A DNA stretch of 64,000 nt from an uncultured cyanobacterium (GCA_963793265.1 CAWBZI010000002.1:288001-352000); one strand, 5' to 3'; positions 8,451 through 25,983 are shown, counted from the stretch's first letter. The notes: a model not told the origin generated them from the sequence alone. Made by a program: numbers and translations.

Positions 8451-8501
8451 TTGACTATATCTATTGAGTGAGCTATTAATGAGTGAGCAGTCACTCATTA
8501 A
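8451..8501 (+). promoter_or_regulatory. Promoter of the ABC efflux operon with palindromic operator
   Basis: TTGACT (8451), 17 bp, TATTAA (8474); perfect inverted repeat TTAATGAGTGA-gcag-TCACTCATTAA at 8476-8501. Confidence 0.75.
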
Positions 8502-8560
8502 CTATTTGCCTACGCGGTTACTCCGTATTAAGTCACCTTCACGGTTCACAAACTGATTCG

Positions 8561-10048
8561 ATGAAAGAAAATCAAATTTCTGACGTTTTGAACATTCGAG
8601 CTTCGCTGTCTAAGGTTGCCTTTTCACGCCGATGGCTCTGGGGCTTTCTGTCTGTATTCTTGCTGCTGACCTTAGGATTTGGCAGAAATCTGTTGACTAG
8701 CCGTCGTTCATCAGACTCTGATACGCTCACTCGACAAGTGGAGAGAGCAACGGTTCCGGTAGTCATCACTGCTAATGGCACGGTAGAAGCAGAACGCGCT
8801 ATCAACTTAAGCCCCAAAAATTCGGGTGTTGTGGAAACACTACTGGTGGAAGAGGGCGATCGCGTCACCCAAGGCCAAGTTGTTGCCCTCATGGACGACT
8901 CAAACCTGCGGGGCGAACTCCTTCAGGTACAAGGGCAGCTGGCACAACAGAAAGCAAACTTAGAACGGATAATAGCAGGCGATCGCCCCGAAGATATTGC
9001 CCGAGCCGAAGCTCAACTGGCTGAAGCCGAAGCCAACCTGCGAGAACTCCGCTCGGGCAACCGCAACCAAGAAATTTCGCAGGCCGAAGCGCGGTTGCAG
9101 CGGGCGCGCACAACCCTACAGCAGCGAGAAACCAACCTACAGCGCTACGAATCTCTTTTTAGCGCAGGTGCCATCTCACGAGAAGACGTCGAACAAAGAA
9201 GAGTTGATCGCGATGTGGCTATTGCTGACGTTAGAGAAGCTGAAGAAGCGCTGTCTCTCACTAATGCGGGTAGCCGTGATGAACAAATCGCGCAAGCTGA
9301 GGCTCGCGTAGAGCAGCAGCGGCAAAGTGTTGCCGCGATAAAATCTGGTAATCGCCCAGAAGATATCGAGCAGGCGCGCGCACAGGTACTTTCGGCTGAA
9401 GGGACACTGCAAACGACAGAAGCGAGACTTCAAGACACCGAAATCAGAGCCCCTTTCGACGGGGTGGTCAATCAAATTTACGCTGAGCTAGGGGCCTTTG
9501 TGAGTCCTTCGGTGTCGGGTGGTAATACAGAATCGGCTTCATCGTCGTCTATCCTACAGCTTTCAAGCGATCGCAACGAAGTAGTGGTCAATCTTCCCGA
9601 GGCGCAAATTGCTAAGGTTGAAGTGGGGCAGCCTGTTGTTATTCAAGCCGATGCTTTTTCTGGTGAAACCTTCACAGGACAGGTATCACAGATAGCGGCT
9701 CAGGCAAGTGTCAGTCAAAATGTCACCAGCTTTGAAGTAAGGCTTTCGCTGGATTTGCCTGAAGCCGAAAAGCTGAGAGTCGGCATGAATGTGGAAGCTC
9801 AGTTTGAGGTAGGCCAAATAGAAAATGCGCTGCTAGTGCCTAACGCCGCTGTTGTTAAAGGGCCAGAAGGTGAGGGCGTGTATGTGTTAGAGGGCGATGA
9901 GCCTGTGTTTCAATCCATTCAGTCTGGAGAGACTGTTCAAGGTCAAACGGAAGTAATTTCTGGGCTTGATGGCGACGAGCAAGTTCTAATCTCACCGCCT
10001 TCAGAAGCAGAATCTCCTGGCGGCTTTCAGCTTCCTTCTCCACCATAA
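8561..10048 (+). CDS. Efflux periplasmic adaptor (MacA/HlyD family)
   Basis: N-terminal TM, lipoyl halves (LLVEEGDRVTQGQVVA, IRAPFDGVV), long coiled coil. ATG 8561 chosen because the ORF-track GTG at 8483 lies inside the operator. Confidence 0.9.
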   Translation: MKENQISDVLNIRASLSKVAFSRRWLWGFLSVFLLLTLGFGRNLLTSRRSSDSDTLTRQVERATVPVVITANGTVEAERAINLSPKNSGVVETLLVEEGDRVTQGQVVALMDDSNLRGELLQVQGQLAQQKANLERIIAGDRPEDIARAEAQLAEAEANLRELRSGNRNQEISQAEARLQRARTTLQQRETNLQRYESLFSAGAISREDVEQRRVDRDVAIADVREAEEALSLTNAGSRDEQIAQAEARVEQQRQSVAAIKSGNRPEDIEQARAQVLSAEGTLQTTEARLQDTEIRAPFDGVVNQIYAELGAFVSPSVSGGNTESASSSSILQLSSDRNEVVVNLPEAQIAKVEVGQPVVIQADAFSGETFTGQVSQIAAQASVSQNVTSFEVRLSLDLPEAEKLRVGMNVEAQFEVGQIENALLVPNAAVVKGPEGEGVYVLEGDEPVFQSIQSGETVQGQTEVISGLDGDEQVLISPPSEAESPGGFQLPSPP

Positions 10049-10157
10049 AATTCGTCTAAAAACATTCACACTCAAGATTCACACTCAATATTCACGCTGC
10101 GTTCAGCGCGACTTTCAACGATGCTCACTCTCAGCAAGCACAATCAACGACAAGGTT

Positions 10158-11462
10158 ATGTCTCTACTTAACGCTGGTTCTTCTCAGCCGACGGTTTCAG
10201 TTTCGCCGTATAAAAAACGTGCTCACCGCGTCTCTCAGATCGAGATTGTGGAGATGGCGTGGGAAGCTCTATGGAGTAACAAGCTTCGCAGCGGGCTGAC
10301 AATGCTAGGCGTAATCATAGGCATTGGATCTGTTATCTCGATCACCTCTATCGGACAAGGGATTCAAAAGTCTACAGAAGAGAGTATTCGCGGTTTGGGC
10401 ACAGACACCTTACAAGTGGTTGCAGGCTCTGCCCAAAGCGATGGCATTAGCCAGGGGCAAGGATCGGTAACAACCCTCACCTGGGAAGATGCACAGGCTA
10501 TAGAACAACAAGCTCCTTCAGCAACAGTGGTGTCCGCTTATCTTCAGCGCAGTGTTCAGGCCGTCTATGGCGAAAACAACACTTCAACCACTGTATATGG
10601 GACTGATTTAGCCTATCCTAACGCTCGTAATACCTATCCAGCTCAGGGACGGTTTTTCACAGAAGAAGAGCTTTCAAGCTCAGCGTCCGTTGCTGTAATT
10701 GCACCGACCGTTCAAGCCGATTTATTTCCGCTAAATGTCAACCCGATTGGTGAGAAAATTCGTATTCAGAGCGAAATTTACGACGTCATTGGTGTGATGG
10801 AAGCCAAAGGTTCTCAGGGCCCGCTAGATCGCGATGATGCGATCTACATTCCGCTCACCACAATGTCAGCTCGGATTATTGGCAACAACTCGTTAATGGG
10901 TGTATCTGTCAATGGCATTTATGTGAAAGGGAGAACTGAAAGCGAGCTAGAGACGGTGAAATTTCAACTGGAGAACATACTGCGATTGCGTCACGATATT
11001 GCAACGCCCGAAGACGACGATTTTAGTATTATCAATCAGGCAGATATTTTAGAAACGCTCACAACCGTTTTAGGATTGCTGACGACTTTGATTGTAGCGA
11101 TCGCAGGCATTTCTTTAGTAGTCGGTGGCATTGGTATCGCCAATATCATGCTGGTTTCAGTCGTTGAGCGTACGCGCGAAATCGGTATTCGCAAGGCATT
11201 GGGCGCAACAGAAAGAACAATCTTGAGTCAATTTTTAACAGAATCCATCGTCATTTCCATCGCAGGTGGGGTTATTGGAATTGTACTTGGCACGGCTGTT
11301 ACCTTTGTCTCGGCAACAGCCTTTAGGTTCCCGTTTGTGATTTCCAGTAGCGCTGTTTTTGCGAGCTTCGGGCTCTCTACCGCAGTCGGGCTGGTTGCAG
11401 GCGTCATACCCGCAAGAAACGCTTCTAAGCTCGATCCGATTGTGGCCTTAAGAAGTGAATAG
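10158..11462 (+). CDS. ABC transporter permease (MacB/FtsX family)
   Basis: NKLRSGLTMLGVIIGI; GGIGIANIMLVSVVERTREIGIRKALGA; LDPIVALRSE. Confidence 0.95.
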   Translation: MSLLNAGSSQPTVSVSPYKKRAHRVSQIEIVEMAWEALWSNKLRSGLTMLGVIIGIGSVISITSIGQGIQKSTEESIRGLGTDTLQVVAGSAQSDGISQGQGSVTTLTWEDAQAIEQQAPSATVVSAYLQRSVQAVYGENNTSTTVYGTDLAYPNARNTYPAQGRFFTEEELSSSASVAVIAPTVQADLFPLNVNPIGEKIRIQSEIYDVIGVMEAKGSQGPLDRDDAIYIPLTTMSARIIGNNSLMGVSVNGIYVKGRTESELETVKFQLENILRLRHDIATPEDDDFSIINQADILETLTTVLGLLTTLIVAIAGISLVVGGIGIANIMLVSVVERTREIGIRKALGATERTILSQFLTESIVISIAGGVIGIVLGTAVTFVSATAFRFPFVISSSAVFASFGLSTAVGLVAGVIPARNASKLDPIVALRSE

Positions 11463-12153
11463 ATCTACAGTCAATTCATTCCAGAAAATTATGATCGAAA
11501 TGACAGGCATCACTAAGGTCTATCAGCTAGGCGACGTCGATGTGCCTATTTTGAAAGGCATTGATTTAACGATTAGTGCTAGTGAGTATGTTTCAGTGAT
11601 GGGTGCATCAGGGTCAGGCAAGTCTACCTTGATGAACATCATCGGCTGTCTGGATCAACCGACAGAAGGACACTATTCCCTGGAAGGGCGTGATTTGACG
11701 ACGCTAGATAAAGATGAACTCGCCTTCATTCGCAATCAAAAGATTGGCTTCATCTTCCAGCAGTTTAATCTGCTGCCACGATCGACAGCGGTGGAAAATG
11801 TCATGCTGCCGATGGTTTATGCCGGGATACCCAAAGATGAAAGACGCGATCGCGCTGAAATAGCCTTGCAGAAAGTTGGGTTGGGCGATCGCATCAACAA
11901 TCGACCCAGTCAGCTATCGGGTGGTCAGCAACAGCGGGTCGCGATCGCCCGTGCCCTGGTCAACGAACCCGCTCTCTTACTGGCAGATGAACCGACTGGC
12001 GCGCTAGATAGCCAAACCTCTCAAGAAGTGATGAGTCTATTTAATCAACTCAACAGCCAAGAAATTACAATTGTCATCATTACCCATGAGATTGAAGTAG
12101 CTGAGCAAGCCAAGCGACAAATTCGGATTCAAGACGGCTTGGTTGTAAGCTAA
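11455..12153 (+). CDS. ABC transporter ATP-binding protein (MacB/LolD type)
   Basis: Walker A GASGSGKST, signature LSGGQQQR, Walker B LLLADEPTG. The true start may be ATG 11491. Confidence 0.95.
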   Translation: MNRSTVNSFQKIMIEMTGITKVYQLGDVDVPILKGIDLTISASEYVSVMGASGSGKSTLMNIIGCLDQPTEGHYSLEGRDLTTLDKDELAFIRNQKIGFIFQQFNLLPRSTAVENVMLPMVYAGIPKDERRDRAEIALQKVGLGDRINNRPSQLSGGQQQRVAIARALVNEPALLLADEPTGALDSQTSQEVMSLFNQLNSQEITIVIITHEIEVAEQAKRQIRIQDGLVVS

Positions 12154-12249
12154 AGCTATAGGCGTTAGGTCACGCTGTATCATGAAATAGCGGCGCTGTT
12201 ACGGCAGGGCCAACTTCCTATCGCTATCACTTAATGCACGTATCGTTAC

Positions 12250-12840
12250 ATGGCTAGGCCCAGCAAAATCACCAATGAACAAATTTTGAAAGCGGCTCAG
12301 GCAGTTTTTTTAGAAAAAGGATTTGGCGCGTCAACTCAAGAAATTGCTACCAAAGCAGGTATCTCTGAAGGGTCTATCTTTAAGCGATTTCCCACAAAGG
12401 AAGCGTTATTTATTGCAGCAATGGGCATGTCAAAAGTCTCTTCTGTGACTTCATTGATAGAGACAGTGCCTGGGCAAGGTGATTTACAAGAGAACCTCAA
12501 TGAAATTGGGCTTAAAATGATTGATTTCATCCAACAGCTATTGCCCAAAATGATGATGGTGAGATCAAAAGGGCTACCGCTACCACCAATGCTCACCGAA
12601 TCTGGCACAGCGCCTCCTGTGCTTGTCATCCAAGCGTTGACAGCTTTATTTGAAAAAGAGATCGCTTTAGGGCGGATGCGTTGCCCCCATCCTCAAATTG
12701 TTGCCATGATGTTTTTAGGCAGCATGACAGAGTATGTTTTTCTCTCGCAGGCGTCTGCGCCGTTGCCCGACCCTAAAGCCTATGTGGGCTCTGTCGTAGA
12801 CGTTCTTTGGAAAAGCATTCAACCTGATGACGTGAACTAG
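12250..12840 (+). CDS. TetR/AcrR family regulator, paralog of 6494-7078
   Basis: HTH QILKAAQAVFLEKGFGASTQEIATKAGISEGSIFKRFPTKEALF. Confidence 0.93.
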   Translation: MARPSKITNEQILKAAQAVFLEKGFGASTQEIATKAGISEGSIFKRFPTKEALFIAAMGMSKVSSVTSLIETVPGQGDLQENLNEIGLKMIDFIQQLLPKMMMVRSKGLPLPPMLTESGTAPPVLVIQALTALFEKEIALGRMRCPHPQIVAMMFLGSMTEYVFLSQASAPLPDPKAYVGSVVDVLWKSIQPDDVN

Positions 12841-13338: not shown

Positions 13339-14817
13339 ATGAACTCTGAACCTCTCCAATCTCCAAGCGCTTTTCCAGCCAATTCCGCAGGTGCTGGTTC
13401 AGCTTCTAGTCCTAAGCAGTGGCCTAAGTCTCTGAGGCGTCAGCCACGCTGGGTTAGATACGCTTTGCTAGGTTCTGTTGGGCTTTTGGTTGCCGTCGGT
13501 GGCGTGGCTGGCTACCGGGCACTCGTGAGTACACCGCCCGAAACATCTGCTGAACGAAGTGCGGCGTTGCCTGTCGAAACAACGGCAGTAGAGAGGGTTT
13601 CGTCATATCAAGTGCCGCGAACTTATACCGGAGAAATCGTGGCGCTTCGTAGCAGCGAGCTGGGCTTTGAGCGGGGCGGCGAGCTTGTTCAAGTTATGGC
13701 AGACGAGGGCCAGCGAGTGGCCGCGGGCCAGACGTTAGCAAGATTAGATATTCGGAACTTAGAGACGCAGCGACTTCAGGTTGAGGCGCAAAAGGCGCAG
13801 GCGATCGCCCGACTTACCGAGCTGCAAAATGGTGCTAGAGCAGAAGATATTGCAGCCGCTGAAGCTGCGGTAAGAGATTTAGAGCAGCAGCTCACCTTAC
13901 AAAGAACGCAGGAGCAGCGCCGAGAGTACCTTTATGAGAGAGGTGCGATCGCCAGAGAGCAGTTAGATGAATTTGCCTTCGGTGCTAATTCACTACAAGC
14001 TAAGCTAGATCAGGCTCAGAGCCACCTAGAAGAGCTGCGTAACGGCACTCGCTTTGAGCAGACTGACGCGCAAGAAGCCGTGGTGAATCAGCTTGACGCA
14101 CAACTCAGAGATATTGACGTTAATATCTCAAAAAGCACGATCTCTGCGCCTTTTGATGGTATTGTCGCTGAGCGAAGATCTGACGAAGGCACCGTAATAG
14201 GCACAGGACAAGCTGTTATTGAGCTAGTAGAAGCTGCAACGCCGGAAGTTCGAATTGGCATTCCAGCGAGTGTTGTAAACCAAATACAAATTGGCGCATC
14301 GGAAACTATCCGTATTAACAATCAGCCGTATTCTGCTGAAGTCACCGCAATTCTACCTGAGGTTGATCAAAGTACAAGAACTCAAACGGTTGTGCTGGCG
14401 CTAGATACGGCTGCAATCGGAGAAGTAGAGCCGGGGCAGACAGCGAGGCTAACGATATCAGAGACAATTCAATCTGATGGCTTTTGGCTACCAAGAGGGG
14501 CATTGACTCAAGGCATTCGGGGGCTATGGACTTGCTATGTTGTGGTGCCTGCTGCTGAATATAAAGGTTTGGAAGCTCAAGAAGCTTTTGTTGAAAAGGC
14601 TAAGGCGAACAGCAGTCAGACAGCAGAACAGGAGAATTCTCTGGTCGTAGAACAGCGATCGGTAGAGATTATTCAGCAAGAAACAACAGGCGATGGGGCT
14701 AATACCAGTACTCGCGTTTTAGTGAGAGGTACTCTACAGCCTGGAGATCAGGTCGTGACCAGCGGTGTTCATCGTTTAGTCCCAAAGCAAAAAGTCACAG
14801 CGGTTTCATCTCGATGA
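13339..14817 (+). CDS. RND efflux periplasmic adaptor subunit
   Basis: N-terminal TM; ELGFERGGEL...DEGQRVAAGQTLARLD; coiled coil; ISAPFDGIV; directly upstream of the RND permease. Confidence 0.92.
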   Translation: MNSEPLQSPSAFPANSAGAGSASSPKQWPKSLRRQPRWVRYALLGSVGLLVAVGGVAGYRALVSTPPETSAERSAALPVETTAVERVSSYQVPRTYTGEIVALRSSELGFERGGELVQVMADEGQRVAAGQTLARLDIRNLETQRLQVEAQKAQAIARLTELQNGARAEDIAAAEAAVRDLEQQLTLQRTQEQRREYLYERGAIAREQLDEFAFGANSLQAKLDQAQSHLEELRNGTRFEQTDAQEAVVNQLDAQLRDIDVNISKSTISAPFDGIVAERRSDEGTVIGTGQAVIELVEAATPEVRIGIPASVVNQIQIGASETIRINNQPYSAEVTAILPEVDQSTRTQTVVLALDTAAIGEVEPGQTARLTISETIQSDGFWLPRGALTQGIRGLWTCYVVVPAAEYKGLEAQEAFVEKAKANSSQTAEQENSLVVEQRSVEIIQQETTGDGANTSTRVLVRGTLQPGDQVVTSGVHRLVPKQKVTAVSSR

Positions 14818-14884
14818 AGCTGCCAACGTTCAACGACTCTTTACTTGTTTAAATCAACCACAATACGCTCAACTTAGAACTCCC

Positions 14885-17800
14885 ATGGTTCGTCCTTTTT
14901 TCCGCAATATCCGGCTTCTCCTTTTAACGATTGTTATTGTCTTAGTTTGGGGGATTTCCGCTATGCAATCCCTACCAAGGCAAGAAGATCCGACCCAAGT
15001 TTCCCGAGTCGCTGTTATAAACACGCTGTTCCCAGGTGCTAGTGCTGAGCGAGTAGAAGCACTGGTCACCGAAGTTGTCGAATCTGAAGTCTCTGCGATT
15101 GAAGAAGTAAAAACAATTAGCTCAACCTCACGAGTCGGCTTTTCAACCGTCGTCGTTGAGCTAGAAGATTCGGTTGAAAATGCAGAGCCTATCTGGTCTC
15201 GGGTACGAGATAAGATGGAAGATGCCAATATTCTTTTCCCACCTGGCGCTTTTAAGCCTGAGCTTGAAGCCACGGAGACTCGGGCATACGCAATGATTGC
15301 AGCTATTACCTGGGATCAAAGTAGCGCGCCCAACTACGCTATACTTAGGCGCTTTGGAGAAGAGTTTGAAATTCAGATGCGGGGCGTTGCAGGCACCGAA
15401 GAGATCGAAGAGTTTGGTATTCCAGATGAAGAAATCAATGTAGAAATCAATGCGTCTGACTTAGCCGCTGTTGGGCTCAGTGCTCAGCAGCTAGCCCAGC
15501 AAGTGAGTCAGAGTGACGCGAAAGTAACCGCCGGACAGCTGCGCAATCCCAACGAAAACTTATCGATTGAAGTAGATAGTGAGCTAAGTTCCCTAGAACA
15601 AATCCGACAGATTCCGATTCGCTCAGCGAACGGCCAGTTTACTCGACTAGGCGATGTTGCTAAAGTTGACCGCGGCGTCAGAGAGCCTCCTACCGATATC
15701 TCATTCGTCAACGGCAAACCAGCAGTTGCCTATGGCATTTTGATGAGTTCTGGACAACGAATTGACCAGTGGGCGGAAAGCGCTTTTCAGCAGATGGAAG
15801 CCTTTCGCACTCAGCTACCGGGTGGGCTCTCTCTAACCGTTCTGCTCGATCAGAGTCAATATGTGGATGCTCGGCTAGGGACACTGGTATCTAACCTAGT
15901 GTTCGGTGCGGCTTTAGTTGTGATTGTCACGTTTATTACGATGGGCTGGCGCTGTTCGTTGATTGTGGGCGCGGCGCTGCCGTTGAGTATTTGCGCTGTG
16001 CTCGGCCTAATGAGCGTGCTGGGCATTCCGATTCATCAAATATCGGTGGCTGGACTGATTATTGCACTGGGTCTATTAATCGATAACGCAGTGGTTGCCG
16101 TTGATGAGATTCAGGTAGAGCTAAAGCATGGTGTTGCGCCTGAAAATGCGGTCGTTGATACGGTGAAGTACCTTCAGGGGCCGTTGTTTGCCTCTACGAT
16201 CACGACCATGATGACATTTCTACCGATTGCGCTGTTGCCAGGGGGTGCAGGAGAGTTTGTTGGTTCTATCGCGATGACTGTGATTCTTTCGATTGGCTCA
16301 TCGCTTGTCCTTTCGCTCACGGTTATTGCAGCGATCACCGGTAAAATTTTGGGCGAGAGTGAAGCTGATATTGAGAAATTACAGAATCAGGATTCTCTCA
16401 GTATTTTTCAACGACTGTTTCGCATTCTGATGAAGCCGGGTGCCTGGTGGAACGACGGGTGGAGCCCCAAGCGACTGGGCAACTTCTATCGGTGGACGGT
16501 AAAGCGAGCAATGGCGAAACCTGTCTTTGCCATTGTATTGACAATGGTAATACCGGCTGTTGGTTTTATTCAAGCGGGCAGCTTGGACACTCAGTTTTTC
16601 CCCTCGTTAGATCGCGATCAGTTTCAGATAGAGGTTGAGTTTTCTCAGGAAAACGCGATCGCTAACTCTCAAGAGCAGGTAATGCGCGCCCGAGATTTGC
16701 TTTTGGAGTATGAACAGATAACCGAAGTTCACTGGTTTGTAGGTGAAAGCGCGCCTAAGTTCTACTACAACATTGGTGCGACCCGAGAAAATTCGCCTTA
16801 CTACGCGCAGGCGCTAGTGCAGCTTAACTCTTCAGAAGCGGTGACGCCCCTCATTCAAGAGATTCAGTCAGACCTAGATGTCGCACTTCCTGAAGCGCGA
16901 GTGCTGGTACGACAGCTAGAGCAAGGGCCGCCTTTTGATGCGCCGGTAGAGCTAAGGATATATGGGCCCAATATCGAAGAGCTAAGAGCGCTAGGCGCAA
17001 GAGCCAGAGAGATTCTGACGACAGTCCCTGATGTGGTACATGTCCGAGATGATTTGACCGCGACTGTTCCTAAATTAGTGCTGGAGATCGATGAAGAGCA
17101 GGCGCAGCAAGCAGGCGTTTCTAATCAAGAAGTTGCGCAGCAGCTACAGGCAACGCTAGAAGGTACCGTTGGAGGTTCTATTCTGGAATCGACTGAGAAC
17201 TTGCCTGTGCGCGTGCAAATTTCAGATGGTGATCGCGGCGATCTCTCTCAAATCGAGGCACTAAACCTACAGCCTGGACAAAACGGACAAGGACAAAATG
17301 CACAAGGGCAAGGCGACAGCTTTAGAACAGTGTCTGCACTCGGAGCGTTTAAGATAGTGCCACAGCTTTCGCAAATTGCACATCGCAATGAACAGCGTGT
17401 AAACACGGTACAAGGCTTTATCACAGCAGGTACACTGCCTTCTAAAGTGCTGGCCGATTTTCAGGCGGCGATGGAAGAACAGGGCTTTGAGCTACCTCCG
17501 GGCTACTACACAGAGATTGGAGGTGAGCAGGCCGAAAGCAGCGATGCAACAGGCGACTTATTAGGATCGGTTGGCCTACTGCTAGTTGCAATGGCCGCTG
17601 CCCTTGTGCTCTCGCTTCAGAGCTTTCGCTCGGCGGGTATTGTTGCAGCCGTTGGCGTTGGTTCTGTGGGTATGGCGTTATTCTCACTGTGGGCTTTTGG
17701 TTCGTTGCTAGGTTTTATGGCCATTGTGGGTGCGATGGGCCTAATCGGCATTGCTATTAACGGCAGCATTATTGTGCTCTCAGCTATCAATGAAGACAAG

Positions 17801-18109
17801 CCAGCTAGAGCAGGCGATCGCAAAGCCATACAAGAGGTGGTGATGCGCGCGACCCGTCACGTAGTGACGACAACGGTAACGACCATGGTTGGGTTTGCAC
17901 CGCTGCTGCTTTCGGGCGATCCCTTTTGGAACCCGCTCGCAGTTGCGATCGCAGGCGGCATTGGTGGCTCTCCTTTCCTGGCACTATATTTCACACCCGC
18001 AGCGTATTTGATGATGCATAGACGAGATCGTCGAGATGCTCACAATAACAATCACGACCAGACGACACGCCAGTCCAAACAATCCACACAAGCGCTACCT
18101 TCGACGTAG
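14885..18109 (+). CDS. RND efflux permease (AcrB/AcrD/AcrF family)
   Basis: 1074 aa; LPRQEDP, FPGASAERVEALVT, GLLIDNAVV, FFPSLDRDQF, two TM bundles. Confidence 0.95.
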   Translation: MVRPFFRNIRLLLLTIVIVLVWGISAMQSLPRQEDPTQVSRVAVINTLFPGASAERVEALVTEVVESEVSAIEEVKTISSTSRVGFSTVVVELEDSVENAEPIWSRVRDKMEDANILFPPGAFKPELEATETRAYAMIAAITWDQSSAPNYAILRRFGEEFEIQMRGVAGTEEIEEFGIPDEEINVEINASDLAAVGLSAQQLAQQVSQSDAKVTAGQLRNPNENLSIEVDSELSSLEQIRQIPIRSANGQFTRLGDVAKVDRGVREPPTDISFVNGKPAVAYGILMSSGQRIDQWAESAFQQMEAFRTQLPGGLSLTVLLDQSQYVDARLGTLVSNLVFGAALVVIVTFITMGWRCSLIVGAALPLSICAVLGLMSVLGIPIHQISVAGLIIALGLLIDNAVVAVDEIQVELKHGVAPENAVVDTVKYLQGPLFASTITTMMTFLPIALLPGGAGEFVGSIAMTVILSIGSSLVLSLTVIAAITGKILGESEADIEKLQNQDSLSIFQRLFRILMKPGAWWNDGWSPKRLGNFYRWTVKRAMAKPVFAIVLTMVIPAVGFIQAGSLDTQFFPSLDRDQFQIEVEFSQENAIANSQEQVMRARDLLLEYEQITEVHWFVGESAPKFYYNIGATRENSPYYAQALVQLNSSEAVTPLIQEIQSDLDVALPEARVLVRQLEQGPPFDAPVELRIYGPNIEELRALGARAREILTTVPDVVHVRDDLTATVPKLVLEIDEEQAQQAGVSNQEVAQQLQATLEGTVGGSILESTENLPVRVQISDGDRGDLSQIEALNLQPGQNGQGQNAQGQGDSFRTVSALGAFKIVPQLSQIAHRNEQRVNTVQGFITAGTLPSKVLADFQAAMEEQGFELPPGYYTEIGGEQAESSDATGDLLGSVGLLLVAMAAALVLSLQSFRSAGIVAAVGVGSVGMALFSLWAFGSLLGFMAIVGAMGLIGIAINGSIIVLSAINEDKPARAGDRKAIQEVVMRATRHVVTTTVTTMVGFAPLLLSGDPFWNPLAVAIAGGIGGSPFLALYFTPAAYLMMHRRDRRDAHNNNHDQTTRQSKQSTQALPST

Positions 18110-18117
18110 CTATAGCA

Positions 18118-18441
18118 ATGATAAAGTTTCCCGTCTTACAGTATCTCAATCAACTATTTTTCGATAACGGTAGAGCACTGGTTCTCAGCCCGAAAGCGTA
18201 CTGGAAAATTCACTGCGTTTTACAGTGCGAGCGCTGCTATCAGAGCCAGCCGCTAGAACGCTCTTGGCGGTTAGATTACAGTGATTTTATAATAAGAAAC
18301 TGGGCGATAGCAGACCGGCATCTCTTAGAAGAAGAAAGTGGCGACTTTCTAGAGCACTGCTGGCGGCTGAATTTTAAAGAACACAGCCTTCACGGCCATT
18401 TTGAAGAACCGCCATCAGACTCTTTTGAGAATGATGTTTGA
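18118..18441 (+). CDS. Small hypothetical protein
   Basis: Starts 8 bp after the RND stop; repeated motif CERCY/LERSWRL/LEHCWRL. Confidence 0.55.
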   Translation: MIKFPVLQYLNQLFFDNGRALVLSPKAYWKIHCVLQCERCYQSQPLERSWRLDYSDFIIRNWAIADRHLLEEESGDFLEHCWRLNFKEHSLHGHFEEPPSDSFENDV

Positions 18442-18489: not shown

Positions 18490-19107
18490 ATGAACAGATC
18501 AATTTTTTACATTCCAGACTCAAGTAAACCCGCGGAAGTGACTGCCTCTTTGTCAGCGGCCTTACAGGTCTTTGAGGCATACGGATATTCAATGGCCAGC
18601 ATGGCTCGCATCGCTGAGGTCTCAAATATCAGTGAGCGTAAGCTGTATAGCTATTTCGATAGTAAGCAGGCGTTGTTCGAGGTGCTCGTCAAGCATTTGA
18701 TAGAGAGCACCTACCAAACACTTTTTAGCATCATTAGGGAATACGACTTTAATCTTCCGCCAAAACAAGTGCTAGCGCAGGTCGCTACTGTAACGCTTGA
18801 AAGCGTCTCTAGAGACCAGTCATTTTTAACGTTAATACGGCTGATTGTAGAAGAATCTAGCCGATTTCCTGAGCTAGCTAAGATATTCGTCTTGGAAATA
18901 GAGAAACCACTGCTTGAACAGCTCTCCTCTTATCTACGATTCCATCCAAACGTTCAGGTCAAAGATCCGATGGCTTCAGCACGAATTTTCGTGGGTGCAC
19001 TAGCGCACTATCTGCTTATACAAGAAATGTTCAACGGGAAAGCAGATCTGCCCTTTGACTCAGAAAGAATGATTGCTGTTCTCGTTTCTCAGATTATAGG
19101 TGCCTAA
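18490..19107 (+). CDS. TetR/AcrR family regulator
   Basis: AALQVFEAYGYSMASMARIAEVSNISERKLYSYFDSKQALF; C-terminal ESSRFPELA. Confidence 0.88.
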   Translation: MNRSIFYIPDSSKPAEVTASLSAALQVFEAYGYSMASMARIAEVSNISERKLYSYFDSKQALFEVLVKHLIESTYQTLFSIIREYDFNLPPKQVLAQVATVTLESVSRDQSFLTLIRLIVEESSRFPELAKIFVLEIEKPLLEQLSSYLRFHPNVQVKDPMASARIFVGALAHYLLIQEMFNGKADLPFDSERMIAVLVSQIIGA

Positions 19108-19201: not shown

Positions 19202-19564
19202 ATGTTTGTTTTAAGTGGGTATGAGTATTTTTTAGGCTTTTTATTGCTTAGCAGCTTAGTCCCTGTTGTGGCCTTGGTCGCGGCCAAACTGTTGCGCCCA
19301 CCCACTGCTGGGCCAGCTAGCCGAACAACCTACGAATCAGGCTGTGAACCTATCGGTGGCGCATGGATTCAGTTCAATGTTCGATACTACATGTACGGTT
19401 TAGTTTTTCTGATATTTGATATAGAGACAGTCTTTTTGTATCCTTGGGCGGTTGCCTTCCACTCTCTAGGTCTTTTCGCTTTTTTAGAAGCCTTAATATT
19501 TATTGGAATTCTAGTGGTTGGCCTAGTCTATGCTTGGCGTAAAGGTGCCTTGGAATGGTCATAG
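19202..19564 (+). CDS. ndhC: NAD(P)H-quinone oxidoreductase subunit 3 (NdhC), not followed by ndhK/ndhJ
   Basis: [13 protein letters not shown]...[24 protein letters not shown]...[13 protein letters not shown]...RKGALEWS, 120 aa. Confidence 0.95.
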
Positions 19565-19680
19565 TGTTGAAGAGGTCATCTTACATATGCCACATAGAAG
19601 ATTGCTATGCTTTTAGCTCAACACAATGCATTGTCACTCTGCCAGCCGCTCGAACGTATTTTTATCAACAATTAAACCTG

Positions 19681-19737
19681 TTGACAACAGCTAGTCTTTC
19701 ATCTATCTTTTAATAAATCACTCGACTGACTTGTTAA
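19681..19737 (+). promoter_or_regulatory. Promoter with operator-like site upstream of the Grx-AhpD genes
   Basis: TTGACA (19681), 17 bp, TATCTT (19704); AATCACTCGACTGACTT (19716-19732), whose reverse complement matches 13278-13294 at 15/17. Confidence 0.6.
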
Positions 19738-19871
19738 AAGCACAATAGAATCATCCGCTAAGCGCTTGCGCAGATGATGAAAAGCCTTATCCCGCCAGTT
19801 ATTTAGACTTCTCGACCCGTATCAAAAAATGTTGCTTTCCTATCTCTTTAAGGATTAAGGAGGATTAAGAC

Positions 19872-21581
19872 ATGTCACAACCGAGTATCACTATATTTAC
19901 TCAGCCTAATTGCCCTTACTGTGCAAGTTCTAAGCTGCTGCTAAGCAAGAATGGCTATGCCTACATCGAACACAACGTAAACGCTTCAAAGCGTGCGGCA
20001 GCAGCAAGTATCTACTTTTCGGGAAGTACGTCTGTGCCGCAAGTGTTTTTAGGAAGCTATGCTCTTGGCAACTGGGAGACGCTAGAAAAGCTAATAAATA
20101 CCGGCTATCTTGAGGTGCTCGTCACTATGTTCGATCTAGATTCCGTTTGTTCTACCTTGAATTTTGATGGCCTCTCGGATGCCAAGCTGTTTGAGGGCGC
20201 TAAAGATATTTCAATGGCCAGTGCGATTCTAGAAAGTGACTTTACCTATGAACCCGATGAAGATCTCGAAGAACGAGCGCTTTTACACTTTTACAAAGAT
20301 CTCATAGGCTTTTTACCCACTTCGCAGCTCTATTTCTATCACTGGCAACGGGCCTATAAGCTGGTTAATCTGTTGCAGTTTGTGCCATCGGCATCTTTCA
20401 ATATAGCAACCTACGGCCCTGCCATGATGAACGCTGTTGCCTATACGGCTTCAAGTACTCACGGGCAATCGCCACGTAAAGCTCATGCTGCGGCAATAGA
20501 GAATGAAAGCGCTCTGAAGATAATTGAAGCTTTACAGAAAGCTCGAAAGCAACCGGCAGCAGACAATCCCTTTGGCCCTTACGAGCTGGCGCTAGCTGAC
20601 TTGGCAGGCCGAGCGGCCCTTAATAATGTATCAACCCATTTCTTATCTTACCTAGAAGCGCTAGCACCGCAAGCTCGAAATCAGCTAGAGGGAATGGATA
20701 GCGATAGGCCGAGAGATGCAAAGGCCGATATTGATGCTGTTGCTACAATGTCTGCTACGTTTGGCTTTCTTAATGTCTTTAACGATCTGCTCGGACAAAC
20801 GGGAGAAGGGAGCCGCGCCTTTCAAACGGATACACGCTTGGGCATGAAGGCTAGAAGGCGTGCTGCTTCAAAAAACAACAAAGCCAGCGCTAGTGCCAAA
20901 CTTGACTATCCGCTACCTATCGCGCCACCTTACAAGCTCATCGCAGCACAATACGCCTCAGATATAGGTGATATCGATAAATTCATTAAGAGAGAACTTG
21001 GGTTATTCCCGAACTGGATGCTTGCTTGGCCGCAAGGGTCTGCGCCTGCTTTACAGGCTTATCTCTACACCGAATTAATGGGCAACCGTTTGAACGAGCG
21101 GATTACCCCAGAGCTTCGCCACCTGATGGCTCGGGTCAGCGCGATCGCTAAAGGGCATAGCTATCTAGCGGCACTTGAAGGCTTTTTGGCATACCGATTC
21201 TCAGGGTCTTCTGGCTTCGGTCAGTGCGCGATCACGCGAATTCGCAGCTGCTTTAAAGTCGCAACGAGCTGGACAGACAGTGAGAATGTTTTTTCATATG
21301 AAGAGATCGCCGCGCTAAGACTTGCCTGGATTTCAGCACAGGTGCCACTGGCTACGCCAAAACGATTTGTTCAAGCGGCGCTCGATGCGTTTGATTCTGT
21401 TGAGCTGATCCATCTTATTACAACCTGTGCGATCGCCTCAATGGTTCAGCGCTTTGTTGCGATCGCTAGGCCAGAAATGGAGCCTCAGGTCATTGCCTTT
21501 ATCGCAGAGCACAACATTGAATATAAAACGCTGGTGCTTCGCTATCCCATTACTACATCTAATGTAGCCAAAGCTGCTTAA
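19872..21581 (+). CDS. Glutaredoxin + tandem AhpD/CMD-like fusion protein, AhpD cysteines absent
   Basis: Grx CPYC and SVPQVF; aligns over its length with 21665-23281; HGQSPRKAH where the paralog has HGCSYCQVH; RBS AAGGAGG. Confidence 0.8.
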   Translation: MSQPSITIFTQPNCPYCASSKLLLSKNGYAYIEHNVNASKRAAAASIYFSGSTSVPQVFLGSYALGNWETLEKLINTGYLEVLVTMFDLDSVCSTLNFDGLSDAKLFEGAKDISMASAILESDFTYEPDEDLEERALLHFYKDLIGFLPTSQLYFYHWQRAYKLVNLLQFVPSASFNIATYGPAMMNAVAYTASSTHGQSPRKAHAAAIENESALKIIEALQKARKQPAADNPFGPYELALADLAGRAALNNVSTHFLSYLEALAPQARNQLEGMDSDRPRDAKADIDAVATMSATFGFLNVFNDLLGQTGEGSRAFQTDTRLGMKARRRAASKNNKASASAKLDYPLPIAPPYKLIAAQYASDIGDIDKFIKRELGLFPNWMLAWPQGSAPALQAYLYTELMGNRLNERITPELRHLMARVSAIAKGHSYLAALEGFLAYRFSGSSGFGQCAITRIRSCFKVATSWTDSENVFSYEEIAALRLAWISAQVPLATPKRFVQAALDAFDSVELIHLITTCAIASMVQRFVAIARPEMEPQVIAFIAEHNIEYKTLVLRYPITTSNVAKAA

Positions 21582-21664
21582 GTAAGCTATCGCGCACGCT
21601 ATCTGTTTCAGGATTCTCAAAGATTTTGTTCATCTATAAACTCCATCTATAAACTCTAAGTCTC

Positions 21665-23281
21665 ATGACACAACCTCAGATCGCAATATTCACCAAACCA
21701 AGCTGCCCGTACTGCGAGAAAGCTAAACATGTTTTACGAAGCTACAACTATACAGAGTACGACATTACCTACCTGCGTAATGCTGAGGCAACCCTATACT
21801 TCAGTGGCGTTGCTACAGTGCCACAGATCTTCATCGGCAGCTATCATATCAACGGGGCAGATGATCTCGAACGGCTAGAGATGTCAGGAAAACTGTTAGA
21901 GATCATTAGCGCTGTCCAGAGCCCGCCGCTTCTTATTGATGCTGTCTCTGACCAGACGCTGAAGGAAGGTGCAGAAGATCGGATTTTGAGAACTGTTATC
22001 ACCAAGCTAGACGGCTCGCGTAGTGACGACCCAGAGATCTGGCCGCTTTTGCACTTTAGCAAAGATTTCTTTGGCTTTTGGCCAAACACTTACGACTATC
22101 TCTATTATTGGCCAGAGCTATTTAAGCTCTTCGCCTATTGCCACTACATTCCTGCGATTGACTGCGCTAAACAAAGCCTTGGCGTGCTCAATATGCTGGC
22201 TGTGGGCTATGCAACCTCTAAAGCGCACGGCTGCTCTTATTGTCAGGTGCATAGCGTAGCTGCAGAGGGAGATAGCTCTCTTCAGGTCGAACAGAAGCTG
22301 GCGCAAGTGAAGGAAGGCAATATAGATGATGGAAATCCCTACGATGAGCTATCAGTCGTCATCACCGATTTTGCAGCTAAAGCAACGCACAATCAGGTGA
22401 ACAAAGATTTTCTCAACTATACTGTTAACCGGCTCAAAGAGTTCGCAACAGCTTCAACAACCGTATATGACTACGTTGAAGCCGTCGAAATGATGGTTGC
22501 CAATCTTGGCTTTCTTAATGTCTTCAACGATCTTATCGGAACTGAGATAGAAGGAGACTGGGCCAAGCAAGCTGAAGAACACAGCGGTATTGAGTCAGGT
22601 CGTCACGTAGCAGCGCAAAAAAATCCGTCGAACTTAGACTACGCACTGCCGACGGGTGGGCCATCTATGCTAGAAATAATGGCAAAGTATGATAGATCCA
22701 TTGAGGATTTGATGGCTTATACAGAAGTTAACTTTGGGCTGATGCCTGACTGGATAAGACTTTGGCCTACTGCTCTGCAAAAAAGGCAGGCCTATTGGTA
22801 TGGAGAAGTGATGGGCAGCGGCGATCGCACGTCGGTATCAGCAGAGCTAAAACACCTTATGGCTAGAGTCTCAGCGATCGCAAAAGGCCATGCCTATCTA
22901 TCAGCGGTTGAGGGCTTTATGGCCCATCATACAGGCGCTGGTAACCCCCACGTTGTTGATAGAATTCGGCACTGCTTCGCGGTTGCAAGCGGAAAGAGAT
23001 CTGCTCAAAACTTATTTACCGCTCGTGAGGAAGCTGCCTTAAGATTCGCCTGGCTCTCTGCTCAAGTGCCGCTAAAGACACCTAACAAGTTTGTTCAACC
23101 GGCTATATCGCTGTATACAGCCAAGGAATTGGTTTATTTGAGTATTGTTTGCGCGATCGCCTCTTCGCTACAGCGATTTGCGGCCATTACAAAACCTGAA
23201 GTAGAGCCAGAGGTTTCTCAGTTCTTAGAAGAGCACCAGCTTATTACTGATACGCTACTGCTGCGTTATCCAGAGCTTTGA
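21665..23281 (+). CDS. Glutaredoxin + tandem AhpD/CMD-like fusion protein, CxxC intact
   Basis: Grx CPYC and TVPQIFIG; first AhpD-like unit FGFWPN...SKAHGCSYCQVH; second unit FGLMP...ELKHLMARVSAIAKGHAY...FTAREEAALRFA. Confidence 0.82.
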   Translation: MTQPQIAIFTKPSCPYCEKAKHVLRSYNYTEYDITYLRNAEATLYFSGVATVPQIFIGSYHINGADDLERLEMSGKLLEIISAVQSPPLLIDAVSDQTLKEGAEDRILRTVITKLDGSRSDDPEIWPLLHFSKDFFGFWPNTYDYLYYWPELFKLFAYCHYIPAIDCAKQSLGVLNMLAVGYATSKAHGCSYCQVHSVAAEGDSSLQVEQKLAQVKEGNIDDGNPYDELSVVITDFAAKATHNQVNKDFLNYTVNRLKEFATASTTVYDYVEAVEMMVANLGFLNVFNDLIGTEIEGDWAKQAEEHSGIESGRHVAAQKNPSNLDYALPTGGPSMLEIMAKYDRSIEDLMAYTEVNFGLMPDWIRLWPTALQKRQAYWYGEVMGSGDRTSVSAELKHLMARVSAIAKGHAYLSAVEGFMAHHTGAGNPHVVDRIRHCFAVASGKRSAQNLFTAREEAALRFAWLSAQVPLKTPNKFVQPAISLYTAKELVYLSIVCAIASSLQRFAAITKPEVEPEVSQFLEEHQLITDTLLLRYPEL

Positions 23282-25084: not shown

Positions 25085-25296
25085 TCAGGCTAAACTCATT
25101 CCCAGCGAACTTCCCACAGCGCACCCATAGCGCACCCATAACACAAAGGTGTTCTTGTATACTGATCTATGCAAGCGACGCGATGTCAACCTCGCTATTG
25201 GGCATCGGGCCTCACTGTCGGGACAATCCGATAGGGTGCCTGCGCTCTGAGCAGTATCTTGCTTACGTTTGTTTAAATTACTTATATATGCCCGTG

Positions 25297-25983
25297 ATGA
25301 AATCAAATTCTCTTCAGTCCAACGGCAGCCAGCGCGGTGAAGAAGCTCGTCGTAGCTTAATAGAAGCGGGCATTGAAGCTTTTGGCACGCACGGGTATGA
25401 AGCTGCAAGCACTCGTAGCATCGTCGAAAAAGCAGGCGTGAACCTGGGCGCTATTCCCTATTACTTTAAAAATAAGGAAGGGCTTTATCACGCAGTTGCC
25501 GAGCACATTGCCTTTTATCTTGACGATCCAGAAATAAACGATGCGATCGCACACATTGATCATCAAACAAAAAGCTCATCGCTGTCGAAAGAGCAAGCCT
25601 TAGAACTTATACACAAGCTCTTTGATGCTTTCGTAACGACGCTCATATCCTCCAACAAGCCCGATCTGTGGATACGGTTCATCTTCCGCGAGCTGATGGA
25701 GCCCTCCTCTGTCTTCGAAATCCTCAACAAAAGAGTAGTCAAAAAGACAATCGATCCCTGCACTGCTTTGATTAGCAAGATATTAGACAAGCCGATTGAC
25801 GATCCAGAATGTACCATTCGAGCCTTTTCACTATTTGGCCAGGTGCTAATTTTTCGTTCAATACGACAGGTCACTTTGAAAAGCCTGGGCTGGGACTCTT
25901 TAGAAGGCGATCGCCTCGATCTAGTTCGCAGCGTCATTCATCAGCAGGTTGACGGTGCCCTACGCGCTCAAGTTAAAGGCTAG
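25297..25983 (+). CDS. TetR family regulator, CecR/YbiH-like
   Basis: RGEEARRSLIEAGIEAFGTHGYEAASTR...NLGAIPYYFKNKEGLY; RELMEPS; FGQVLIFR. Start moved to ATG 25297. Confidence 0.88.
   Translation: MKSNSLQSNGSQRGEEARRSLIEAGIEAFGTHGYEAASTRSIVEKAGVNLGAIPYYFKNKEGLYHAVAEHIAFYLDDPEINDAIAHIDHQTKSSSLSKEQALELIHKLFDAFVTTLISSNKPDLWIRFIFRELMEPSSVFEILNKRVVKKTIDPCTALISKILDKPIDDPECTIRAFSLFGQVLIFRSIRQVTLKSLGWDSLEGDRLDLVRSVIHQQVDGALRAQVKG

What the first reader, a model, noticed from the sequence alone, without database searches (positions are those of the whole stretch)
19872..23281. Tandem glutaredoxin-AhpD-AhpD fusion proteins, one with the CxxC motif and one without: candidate new thiol-redox system
Seen: two adjacent full-length paralogs, each with an N-terminal Grx (CPYC, S/TVP) and two AhpD/CMD-like repeats. 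The second has SKAHGCSYCQVH in repeat 1. The first has SSTHGQSPRKAH, lacking both Cys, yet keeps its Grx CPYC and an intact 569-aa frame. Repeat 2 lacks CxxC in both (ELxHLMARVSAIAKGHxYL) but is well conserved between them. Known: AhpD uses CxxC plus His and is recycled by lipoamide-dependent partners; sestrins have one active and one degenerate AhpD-like domain. I do not recognise this fusion as characterised. Inference: a self-contained glutathione-driven reductase, possibly paired with a pseudo-enzyme or sensor subunit.
Basis: partly seen in the sequence, partly recalled or inferred. Interest (0 to 1): 0.8.

Follow-up and report, generated by a model that had tools for sequence, protein, structure and literature searches.

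The report
Glutaredoxin-fused debrominase-like enzyme with pseudoenzyme
One gene here belongs to a widespread, apparently undescribed family of enzymes that carry their own recycling unit and most resemble a marine enzyme that strips bromine from toxic aromatic molecules, and the gene beside it is an old copy that lost its catalytic centre but kept its other half.

Summary
Observation confirmed. ORF A (19872-21581) and ORF B (21665-23281) are 40% identical glutaredoxin + double AhpD-fold proteins; B has CSYCQVH, A has QSPRKAH. B belongs to a family of at least 208 proteins in Cyanobacteria, Proteobacteria, Actinobacteria and Bacillota. Both repeats have the debrominase Bmp8 as best solved relative by sequence (E 3e-9 each). 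Repeat 1 shares Bmp8's CxYCxxH spacing, not AhpD's CxxCxxxH. The two-repeat fold matches Sestrin2 (Z 21). Neighbours are RND efflux, TetR/LysR, FAD oxygenases, glutathione-reductase-like genes (4 of 63 loci) and, in Actinomadura, a phenazine-halogenase cluster. Best reading: B is an inducible, glutathione-recycled thiol reductase that detoxifies small aromatic toxins, most likely by reductive dehalogenation. The substrate is inferred, not shown. A has no close ortholog and is not a recent copy of B. It keeps 57 of 60 conserved repeat-2 positions but only 37 of 52 non-catalytic repeat-1 positions, an asymmetry none of 148 intact members reaches. Other cysteine-deficient copies show the same pattern near intact genes, so repeat 2 probably has its own function. 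A's glutaredoxin domain also lost three family-conserved residues.

The parts
19872..21581 (+). ORF A, 569 aa: Grx + two Bmp8/AhpD-fold repeats; repeat-1 redox site lost (pseudoenzyme)
   Evidence: conservation test
19872..20126 (+). Grx domain of A (about residues 1-85): CPYC and SVP kept; K11Q, G64N, D67T in B numbering
20466..20486 (+). Degenerate repeat-1 motif of A, QSPRKAH (residues 199-205), aligned to CSYCQVH of B
   Evidence: unchanged in an X2 contig
20922..21551 (+). Repeat 2 of A (about residues 351-560), no CxxC, 57 of 60 family-conserved positions kept
   Evidence: boundaries approximate,
21665..23281 (+). ORF B, 538 aa: intact family member, Grx + catalytic repeat 1 + non-catalytic repeat 2
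21665..21919 (+). Grx domain of B (about residues 1-85), CPYC/TVP, all 25 family-conserved Grx positions kept
22232..22252 (+). Catalytic motif of B, C190-S-Y192-C193-Q-V-H196; aligns without gaps to Bmp8 CMYCKSH, and C190 is the position mutated in the Bmp8 C82A structure
22508..22531 (+). GFLNVFND motif of B (282-289), aligned to Bmp8 GFLNRWN
22655..23278 (+). Repeat 2 of B (about residues 331-538), Bmp8-like fold without cysteine motif
13339..18109 (+). RND efflux pair (membrane-fusion protein 13339-14817, AcrB-type transporter 14885-18109); part of the cassette that travels with the family
   Evidence: RND within 4.5 kb of the family gene in 19 of 63 loci
18118..18441 (+). 107-aa ORF without Pfam match; similar-looking 102-116 aa ORFs lie in 6 cyanobacterial family loci
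   Evidence: likeness to the window ORF judged by eye, not aligned
18490..19107 (+). TetR regulator with AefR-like C-terminal domain, same Pfam pair as the TetR cluster next to the family gene in 15 of 63 loci
19202..19564 (+). Second ndhC copy (87% identical to another copy in this genome), lying between the TetR and A; probably unrelated

Best explanation
B is a self-recycling thiol reductase built like a single-chain Bmp8 dimer with its own glutaredoxin. Shown: domain order, fold and motifs. Inferred by analogy to Bmp8: the C190 thiolate attacks the substrate, most likely the halogen of an electron-rich brominated or chlorinated aromatic, releasing halide and the dehalogenated ring. C193 resolves it to a C190-C193 disulfide. 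The fused Grx CPYC reduces that disulfide and is itself reduced by glutathione, glutathione reductase and NADPH. Repeat 2 stands in for the second subunit and never had catalytic cysteines in this family. The gene is part of an inducible small-toxin defence cassette (TetR/LysR, RND efflux, FAD oxygenases). A is an old, folded pseudoenzyme: it lost the repeat-1 redox site, several neighbouring conserved residues and the probable glutathione site, but selection keeps repeat 2. It therefore most likely keeps a non-catalytic function of repeat 2 (ligand binding or a docking surface), as the C-terminal domain of Sestrin2 does. Rough odds: GSH-recycled thiol reductase 0.85; organohalide substrate about 0.45; A kept for a non-catalytic role about 0.55.
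For: Bmp8 is the best PDB match of each repeat separately: repeat 1 E 3.3e-9 (next non-Bmp8, 2prr, 1.8e-5), repeat 2 E 3.2e-9. It is also the top Foldseek hit of B (E 1.6e-4) and the best single-domain fold match (Z 13.4 for B, only 1.3 above 2prr; Z 14.8, rmsd 2.3 over 183 residues for A). CxYCxxH is present in 117 of 119 listed homologs. In the 155 of 163 rows with the motif, none has His at +7 and no Glu is among the eight commonest residues at -12; AhpD uses Glu118, Cys130, Cys133, His137 (PMC3141380 passages). Bmp8 is proposed to dehalogenate by oxidising its cysteines to a disulfide plus HBr (PMC5577590 passage), so it needs a recycler. A glutathione-reductase-like gene follows the family gene directly in L045, L050, L053, L056 (best hits NF004776/TIGR01424, below cut-off). 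This genome has gshB and gor. Both Bacillota members lost the Grx CxxC but keep CNYCQVH, fitting their lack of glutathione (recalled). Of 63 genome loci: RND 19, TetR or LysR 32 (24 divergent and directly upstream), FAD oxygenase/halogenase cluster 13. In 3 Actinomadura loci and 1 of 21 metagenome loci the gene directly follows a flavin halogenase in a phenazine gene cluster that also has a vanadium-haloperoxidase-like gene. The window's DNA occurs in macroalgae and sediment metagenomes. For A: 57 of 60 repeat-2 versus 37 of 52 non-catalytic repeat-1 positions kept (Fisher p 7e-4; 0 of 148 intact members as asymmetric); 0 of 300 neutral simulations of B's DNA reach 60% identity without a stop; A+B as one clade is rejected (AU p 0.009); P0148, P0037 and the L117 protein show the same asymmetry, and P0154, P0158, P0161 keep Grx and repeat 2 while repeat 1 has decayed.
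Against: No activity was measured. [quoted passage not shown] The primary Bmp8 papers could not be read, so whether CxYCxxH predicts dehalogenation was not tested against a published rule. The halogenase-cluster cases are one genus plus one metagenome contig, so they are not independent, and phenazines also cause redox stress, which a peroxidase would explain equally well. The window's own locus has no halogenase. No background rate was computed for the neighbour counts, and related genomes share cassettes. For A: no ortholog was found; a near-identical strain differs at 6 sites in A (4 non-synonymous, 2 synonymous) and 0 in B, which fits relaxed constraint, though the numbers are tiny and the sites may be one recombined tract. 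The AU test used a quick tree with long branches. Repeat-2 positions may be mostly structural, so the asymmetry could reflect folding alone. In G029 the second copy is simply truncated.
Confidence: 0.42

Rival explanations
1. B is a glutathione-driven alkyl hydroperoxidase, a bacterial sestrin/AhpD analogue with a built-in recycler, like the Prx5-Grx hybrid of Haemophilus. It removes organic peroxides made by redox-cycling toxins such as phenazines.
For: The whole two-repeat core matches Sestrin2 best (Z 21.4, rmsd 3.3 over 275 residues). Sestrin2 reduces cumene hydroperoxide with Cys125/Tyr127/His132 (PMC4674687 passages). 23 of 52 repeat-1 rows weakly match TIGR01926 'peroxidase-related enzyme'. 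No PF02627 match was found in this 99% complete genome, so B could fill that role. The phenazine-cluster context fits.
Against: AhpD's Glu(-12) and His(+7) are absent. The Sestrin Z is inflated by covering two domains, at 12-13% identity. The neighbours are efflux pumps and TetR/LysR regulators; no AhpC, catalase or other peroxide gene was among the recurring neighbour clusters scanned. The family is patchy (19 of 173 genomes in the window's family), unlike housekeeping peroxide defence.
Confidence: 0.22
2. B reduces reactive halogen species (HOBr, HOCl, haloamines) made by algal or bacterial haloperoxidases, like the AhpD-family proteins RcsA/RclX, and is recycled by its Grx.
For: AhpD-like RcsA and RclX protect Pseudomonas from HOCl (passages of PMC9751292; PMC7950407). 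A vanadium-haloperoxidase-like gene lies in the same cluster in L076, L080, L082, L096. The habitat is macroalgae and sediment. The chemistry (thiolate attack on electrophilic halogen) is close to Bmp8's.
Against: RclX keeps 4 of 5 AhpD catalytic residues; this family uses Bmp8 spacing. The adjacent flavoproteins score better as glutathione reductase than as RclA. RND pumps and FAD oxygenases point to organic compounds.
Confidence: 0.18
3. A is only a slowly decaying spare copy. After it joined B, catalysis was released and repeat 2 persists because a misfolded product is costly or because decay is recent; it has no role of its own.
For: No ortholog above 44-45% identity among 5.8 billion proteins or 173 related genomes. 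Long terminal branch of 0.9. 4 non-synonymous versus 2 synonymous differences in a sister strain, none in B. The degenerate forms are not shown to be one clade, most are singletons, and one second copy is truncated.
Against: A 569-codon frame open at about 40% identity is not compatible with long neutrality (0 of 300 simulations, substitutions only). The losses are concentrated in repeat 1 and the Grx site, not spread evenly. The CSYG form is kept in two proteins 93% identical to each other. All 4 cysteine-deficient copies with a known genome lie on the same contig as an intact copy (83 bp, about 4.5, 5.6 and 37 kb), though decaying duplicates would do so too.
Confidence: 0.35
4. A and B form an obligate heteromer in which A is a regulatory or electron-donor subunit: A's Grx CPYC serves B's active site in trans, docked through repeat 2.
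For: Adjacent, co-oriented genes 83 bp apart. AhpD-fold proteins are usually oligomers (PMC3141380 passages). The first Grx cysteine is kept in A, P0037, the L117 protein, P0154, P0158 and P0161, and lost only in P0148.
Against: The four B-like relatives at 74% identity include L028, which has no A-like gene within 10 kb, and most members stand alone. A lost the probable glutathione-binding residues.
Confidence: 0.12

Closest known systems
Bmp8 tetrabromopyrrole debrominase (PDB 6OHI/6OHJ)
   Same: Best PDB match of both repeats by sequence profile; same CxYCxxH spacing and GFLNxxN helix; C190 aligns with C82.
   Different: Bmp8 is a 195-aa single domain. Here two copies are fused, only one is catalytic, and a Grx is added. 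Identity is 18-20%. Most members are in efflux/regulator cassettes, not bmp clusters.
Human Sestrin2 (PDB 5DJ4, 5CUF)
   Same: Same two-domain core, with an N-terminal redox domain and a C-terminal domain that lost its catalytic residues (Z 20-21; PMC4674687 passages).
   Different: 12-13% identity, no sestrin Pfam hit, cysteine dyad rather than single Cys, His at +6 rather than +7, fused Grx. Probably an independent duplication (inference).
AhpD-like peroxidases (M. tuberculosis AhpD, PA0269, YP_296737/2PRR, RcsA/RclX)
   Same: All-helical fold and CxYC motif.
   Different: Lacks Glu(-12) and His(+7) of the proton relay; under all curated cut-offs; carries its own Grx.
Hybrid Prx5-Grx (HI0572, PDB 1NM3)
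   Same: Same logic of a thiol enzyme fused to its glutaredoxin recycler; the Grx parts are alike (E 1.4e-11).
   Different: The catalytic domain there is a peroxiredoxin (recalled), a different fold, and the Grx is C-terminal.

Membership tests
Dithiol glutaredoxin domain (PF00462) | Score above the Pfam cut-off, CxxC and cis-Pro loop | tested here: met
   A 45.2 and B 48.2 bits against a cut-off of 22.9; CPYC and S/TVP in both
Dithiol glutaredoxin domain (PF00462) | Glutathione-site residues (Lys before CxxC, Gly and Asp of the GGxDD-type stretch; roles recalled) in B | tested here: met
   K11, T51, G64, D67 present
Dithiol glutaredoxin domain (PF00462) | The same residues in A | tested here: not met
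   Q, S, N, T at these columns
AhpD-like peroxidase | AhpD-type all-helical fold | tested here: met
   2prr Z 12.1, 6e8l Z 11.6 for B; 2pfx Z 11.2, 1gu9 Z 7.6 for A
AhpD-like peroxidase | CxxC in the helix hairpin, in B | tested here: met
   C190/C193
AhpD-like peroxidase | CxxC in the helix hairpin, in A | tested here: not met
   QSPR; A's cysteines are 14, 17, 93, 452, 460, 519
AhpD-like peroxidase | Proton relay Glu at -12 and His at +7 from the first Cys (PMC3141380) | tested here: not met
   0 of 155 rows have His at +7; no Glu among the eight commonest residues at -12 (140 of 155 rows); B has Leu178
AhpD-like peroxidase | Score above the PF02627, TIGR01926 or TIGR04030 cut-off | tested here: not met
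   No PF02627 hit; TIGR01926 15.7 bits against 81.8
AhpD-like peroxidase | Peroxidase activity | not testable with these tools
   needs assay
Bmp8-type reductive dehalogenase | Bmp8 is the nearest solved relative | tested here: met
Bmp8-type reductive dehalogenase | C-x-Y-C-x-x-H and GFLNxxN as in the Bmp8 chain, in B | tested here: met
   Ungapped alignment at both motifs. The role of C82 comes from the 6OHJ title; the roles of the other residues are recalled.
Bmp8-type reductive dehalogenase | The same cysteine motif in A | tested here: not met
   Both Cys and the Tyr lost; His and GFLNVFND kept
Bmp8-type reductive dehalogenase | Substrate-pocket residues | tested here: inconclusive
   The alignment is gapped in the pocket helix; no coordinates; primary papers not held
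Bmp8-type reductive dehalogenase | Location in a halogenated-metabolite gene cluster | tested here: inconclusive
   Not in the window's locus; yes in 3 of 63 genome loci and 1 of 21 metagenome loci; only 10 high-GC loci were re-picked for genes, in part
Bmp8-type reductive dehalogenase | Thiol-dependent removal of halogen | not testable with these tools
   needs assay
Sestrin | Duplicated AhpD-like fold, first domain redox-active, second degenerate | tested here: met
   Z 21.4 over residues 114-511 of B
Sestrin | Sequence homology and single-Cys site (Cys125/Tyr127/His132) | tested here: not met
   12-13% identity, no sestrin Pfam hit at E up to 1, Cys dyad with His at +6
Sestrin | Leucine-binding and GATOR2 (DD motif) sites in the second domain | not tested
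   no residue-level structural alignment available

The most novel reading that the evidence does not exclude
This is a widespread family of oxygen-tolerant, cofactor-free, self-recycling reductive dehalogenases that use glutathione to disarm natural brominated and chlorinated aromatics in marine biofilms. It also independently evolved the sestrin split: repeat 2 is a small-molecule sensor or docking domain important enough that, in several lineages including this window, a copy is kept as a pure repeat-2 pseudoenzyme beside the working enzyme.
Probability: 0.22. Interest if true: 0.88.

Novelty: new variant of a known kind. Interest (0 to 1): 0.66.

Why it matters
Databases label these proteins only 'glutaredoxin domain-containing protein'; the 450-residue core has no Pfam name. 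If the Bmp8 analogy holds, this is a one-gene aerobic route to remove halogens from natural marine organohalides, of use for the marine bromine cycle and for bioremediation, and it would supply a physiological recycler for Bmp8-type chemistry. It is also a compact bacterial model of the sestrin design. The natural repeat-1-dead copies make the question 'what does the degenerate AhpD domain do?' directly testable.

Tried and rejected
Complex prediction of B(86-538) with A(95-562): score 0.00 against a mark of 0.32, verdict 'no answer'; no evidence either way. No RNA holder was listed for the stretch; this says nothing on expression. Orthologs of A: not found by protein search (best 44%), cluster look-up (2 members differing by one residue) or 173 related genomes (one search returned the same set). 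A profile of five degenerate forms returned only two of its own members (a weak search), and the metagenome scan with it gave 21 loci, none with a new full-length degenerate form. Profile-profile comparison of repeat 1 with repeat 2 was not significant (probability 2.6%, E 0.018); the duplication rests on both matching Bmp8 and on the fold. No match in plasmids. Promoter and terminator scan at chance level (9 sites against 6.5 +/- 2.4). No shared operator emerged from a crude motif look. No clear composition shift at the locus. The PF22778 search of this genome was uninformative because no control rang. ESM Atlas gave only unnamed or CMD-type clusters (0.92-0.94). Ten literature searches listed no paper on this fusion; one search was swamped by bone morphogenetic protein papers, and the library lacks most subscription journals. 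Three Bmp8 papers were not held. No supplements were read; homolog lists in the Bmp8 papers could include members of this family. Earlier scan findings: none. Rejected: frameshift or assembly error for A; A as a recent duplicate of B; a selenocysteine or recoded stop at the motif (the codons are sense codons).
Full report
Observation. The two ORFs are as described: A (19872-21581, 569 aa) and B (21665-23281, 538 aa), 83 bp apart, 40% identical. Pfam sees only the N-terminal glutaredoxin. B has C190-S-Y-C193-Q-V-H196; A has QSPRKAH, encoded by ordinary sense codons several changes away from cysteine. Contigs from two studies bridge the A-B junction (X2 of P1, the study of the possible source sample; X3 and X4 of P2), and an X2 contig covers A's motif unchanged.

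The family. B found 208 full-length relatives, of which the best 120 were listed. Of the 119 listed homologs, 117 have CxYCxxH; one has CSYG and one has Tyr for His. A scan of species genomes gave 63 loci: 26 Cyanobacteriota, 25 Pseudomonadota, 7 Actinomycetota, 2 Bacillota, 3 unassigned. Many named hosts are marine or salt-loving by their names and my recall; Actinomadura is an exception. The family is patchy: 19 of 173 genomes in the window's own family. A profile search of cluster representatives added a distant Grx-fused subfamily and Grx-less double-repeat proteins. Sources name these proteins only as glutaredoxin or alkylhydroperoxidase-family proteins. Ten literature searches (listings only) showed no paper on the fusion, in a library that lacks most subscription journals.

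Fold and nearest enzyme. AlphaFold models are confident (B: pLDDT 96.0, pTM 0.95; A: 92.6, 0.94). The two-repeat core matches human Sestrin2 (Z 21.4, rmsd 3.3, 275 residues, 13% identity). In Sestrin2 the first domain is a peroxidase and the second has lost its catalytic residues and gained a separate function (PMC4674687, passages). The best single-domain relative is the debrominase Bmp8: top Foldseek hit and best hit of each repeat's profile, E 3.3e-9 and 3.2e-9 (52 and 51 rows chosen from the loci). Repeat 1 aligns without gaps to Bmp8's CMYCKSH and GFLNRWN, and C190 falls on the residue mutated in the C82A structure. 2PRR and PA0269 have one more residue before the His. AhpD's relay is Glu118, Cys130, His132, Cys133, His137 (PMC3141380, passages). 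In 155 of 163 rows with the motif none has His at +7, and Glu is not among the eight commonest residues at -12 (the pattern itself asked for His or Tyr at +6, and the 8 misses are 7 degenerate forms and one truncated row). So B works like Bmp8 more than like AhpD, but at 18-20% identity and without an assay it is not filed as a debrominase. [quoted passage not shown] The primary papers were not held, so finer residue roles are recalled.

Context. Within 4.5 kb of the gene in 63 loci: RND transporter 19, TetR or LysR 32 (24 divergent and directly upstream), FAD oxygenase/halogenase cluster 13. Many contigs are short, genes were picked by ORF length, no background was computed, and kin share cassettes. 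The window has the same cassette: membrane-fusion protein, RND, a 107-aa ORF, TetR, then a stray second ndhC, A and B. In L045, L050, L053 and L056 a glutathione-reductase-like gene follows directly (best hits below cut-off). This genome has gshB and gor. Both Bacillota members lost the Grx CxxC. In three Actinomadura loci and metagenome locus L096 the gene follows a flavin halogenase at the end of a phenazine cluster that includes a vanadium-haloperoxidase-like gene. This fits a dehalogenase, but also a defence against reactive halogen (as for RcsA/RclX; PMC9751292 and PMC7950407, passages) or against phenazine-made peroxides.

The cysteine-less copy. A has no relative above 44-45% identity and is not a recent duplicate of B (AU p 0.009 on a quick tree of 43 rows chosen from 163, long branches present). 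It is not neutral junk: 0 of 300 substitution-only simulations of B's DNA reached 60% identity without a stop. Its losses are uneven. It keeps 57 of 60 conserved repeat-2 positions but 37 of 52 repeat-1 positions with the four catalytic columns left out (p 7e-4), and none of 148 intact members is as asymmetric (7 degenerate and 8 distant rows were left out of the 148). Its Grx lost K11, G64 and D67, residues I recall as binding glutathione. P0148, P0037 and the L117 protein, each missing a motif cysteine, also exceed all 148. P0154, P0158 and P0161 keep Grx and repeat 2 but have lost much of repeat 1. All four deficient copies with a known genome share a contig with an intact copy: 83 bp (here), about 4.5 kb (L041), 5.6 kb (L056) and 37 kb (G173). 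Against a function for A: such pairs are rare (3 of 63 loci hold two genes, one pair with both intact), most degenerate forms are singletons, the second copy in G029 is truncated, and a sister strain differs from A at 4 non-synonymous and 2 synonymous sites but at none in B. Repeat-2 conservation could also be purely structural.

Mechanism, marked by basis. Shown: architecture, fold, motifs, conservation pattern, neighbours. From known families: cysteine attack and disulfide formation in AhpD-fold enzymes; glutaredoxin recycling by glutathione. Inferred: Grx recycles repeat 1; the substrate is a halogenated aromatic (about 0.45; peroxide about 0.22; reactive halogen about 0.18); the cassette is induced by small toxins; A is kept for a non-catalytic role of repeat 2 (about 0.55; slow decay about 0.35; obligate subunit about 0.12).

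Verdict. A real and apparently undescribed fusion family, a new variant of the AhpD/Bmp8 kind with sestrin-like anatomy. The nearest enzyme is a dehalogenase, and the A+B pair is a recurring side branch, not the family's normal form. Interest 0.66.

Noticed in passing
L076:248-11602, L080:2-11620, L082:1-11635, L096:2-8540: Phenazine gene cluster (PhzE-, PhzF-, PhzG-like genes, FMO-like, FAD monooxygenase) with a DUF6851/VCPO-like gene and a flavin halogenase in three Actinomadura genomes and one metagenome contig; a candidate pathway for halogenated phenazines. One literature search listed nothing on it.
   Followed up: partly
window 19202-19564: Second ndhC copy with no ndhK/J ORF after it, 87% identical to another copy on contig C1, inside the efflux cassette.
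   Followed up: partly
window 18118-18441: 107-aa ORF without Pfam match right after the RND gene; similar small ORFs (FPxWQYLNQ-type start) occur in 6 family loci.
   Followed up: no
L049:11720-12205, L059, L062, L079, L086: 156-162 aa membrane protein with no Pfam or NCBIfam match directly downstream of the family gene in 5 of 63 loci.
   Followed up: no
L071:9986-11626, L073:9995-11626: Bacillota members lost the Grx CxxC but keep the catalytic motif, so they must use another reductant.
   Followed up: partly
L019-L022; P0151, P0152, P0162, P0164, P0165, P0167, P0176: Distant Grx + double-repeat subfamily, mostly with CxYCxAH and GFF/LNRFND, closer to Bmp8's GFLNRWN; and Grx-less double-repeat proteins P0193, P0250, P0262, P0274, P0225.
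   Followed up: partly
L107:7692-8276, L110:2247-2822 (also L108, L109): Single-domain Bmp8-like proteins of about 190 aa with CxYCQAH and LNRW in metagenome contigs.
   Followed up: no
window 19594-21317: All 11 differences of the X2 strain fall in this tract (5 upstream, 6 in A), none in B; possibly a recombined segment.
   Followed up: partly
L051, L072: The family gene sits among relaxase, TraG-like coupling-protein and lytic transglycosylase genes, which suggests spread on conjugative elements.
   Followed up: no
window 8483-12840 and 25183-25983: A second efflux module (membrane-fusion protein, MacB-type permease, ABC ATPase, TetR) and a CecR-type TetR flank the cassette, making the region rich in efflux and TetR genes.
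   Followed up: no
L055:12420-13892, L075:4243-5790: Unrelated neighbours with Pfam labels 'papain fold toxin / T7SS signal' and 'Clostridium P-47 protein'.
   Followed up: no
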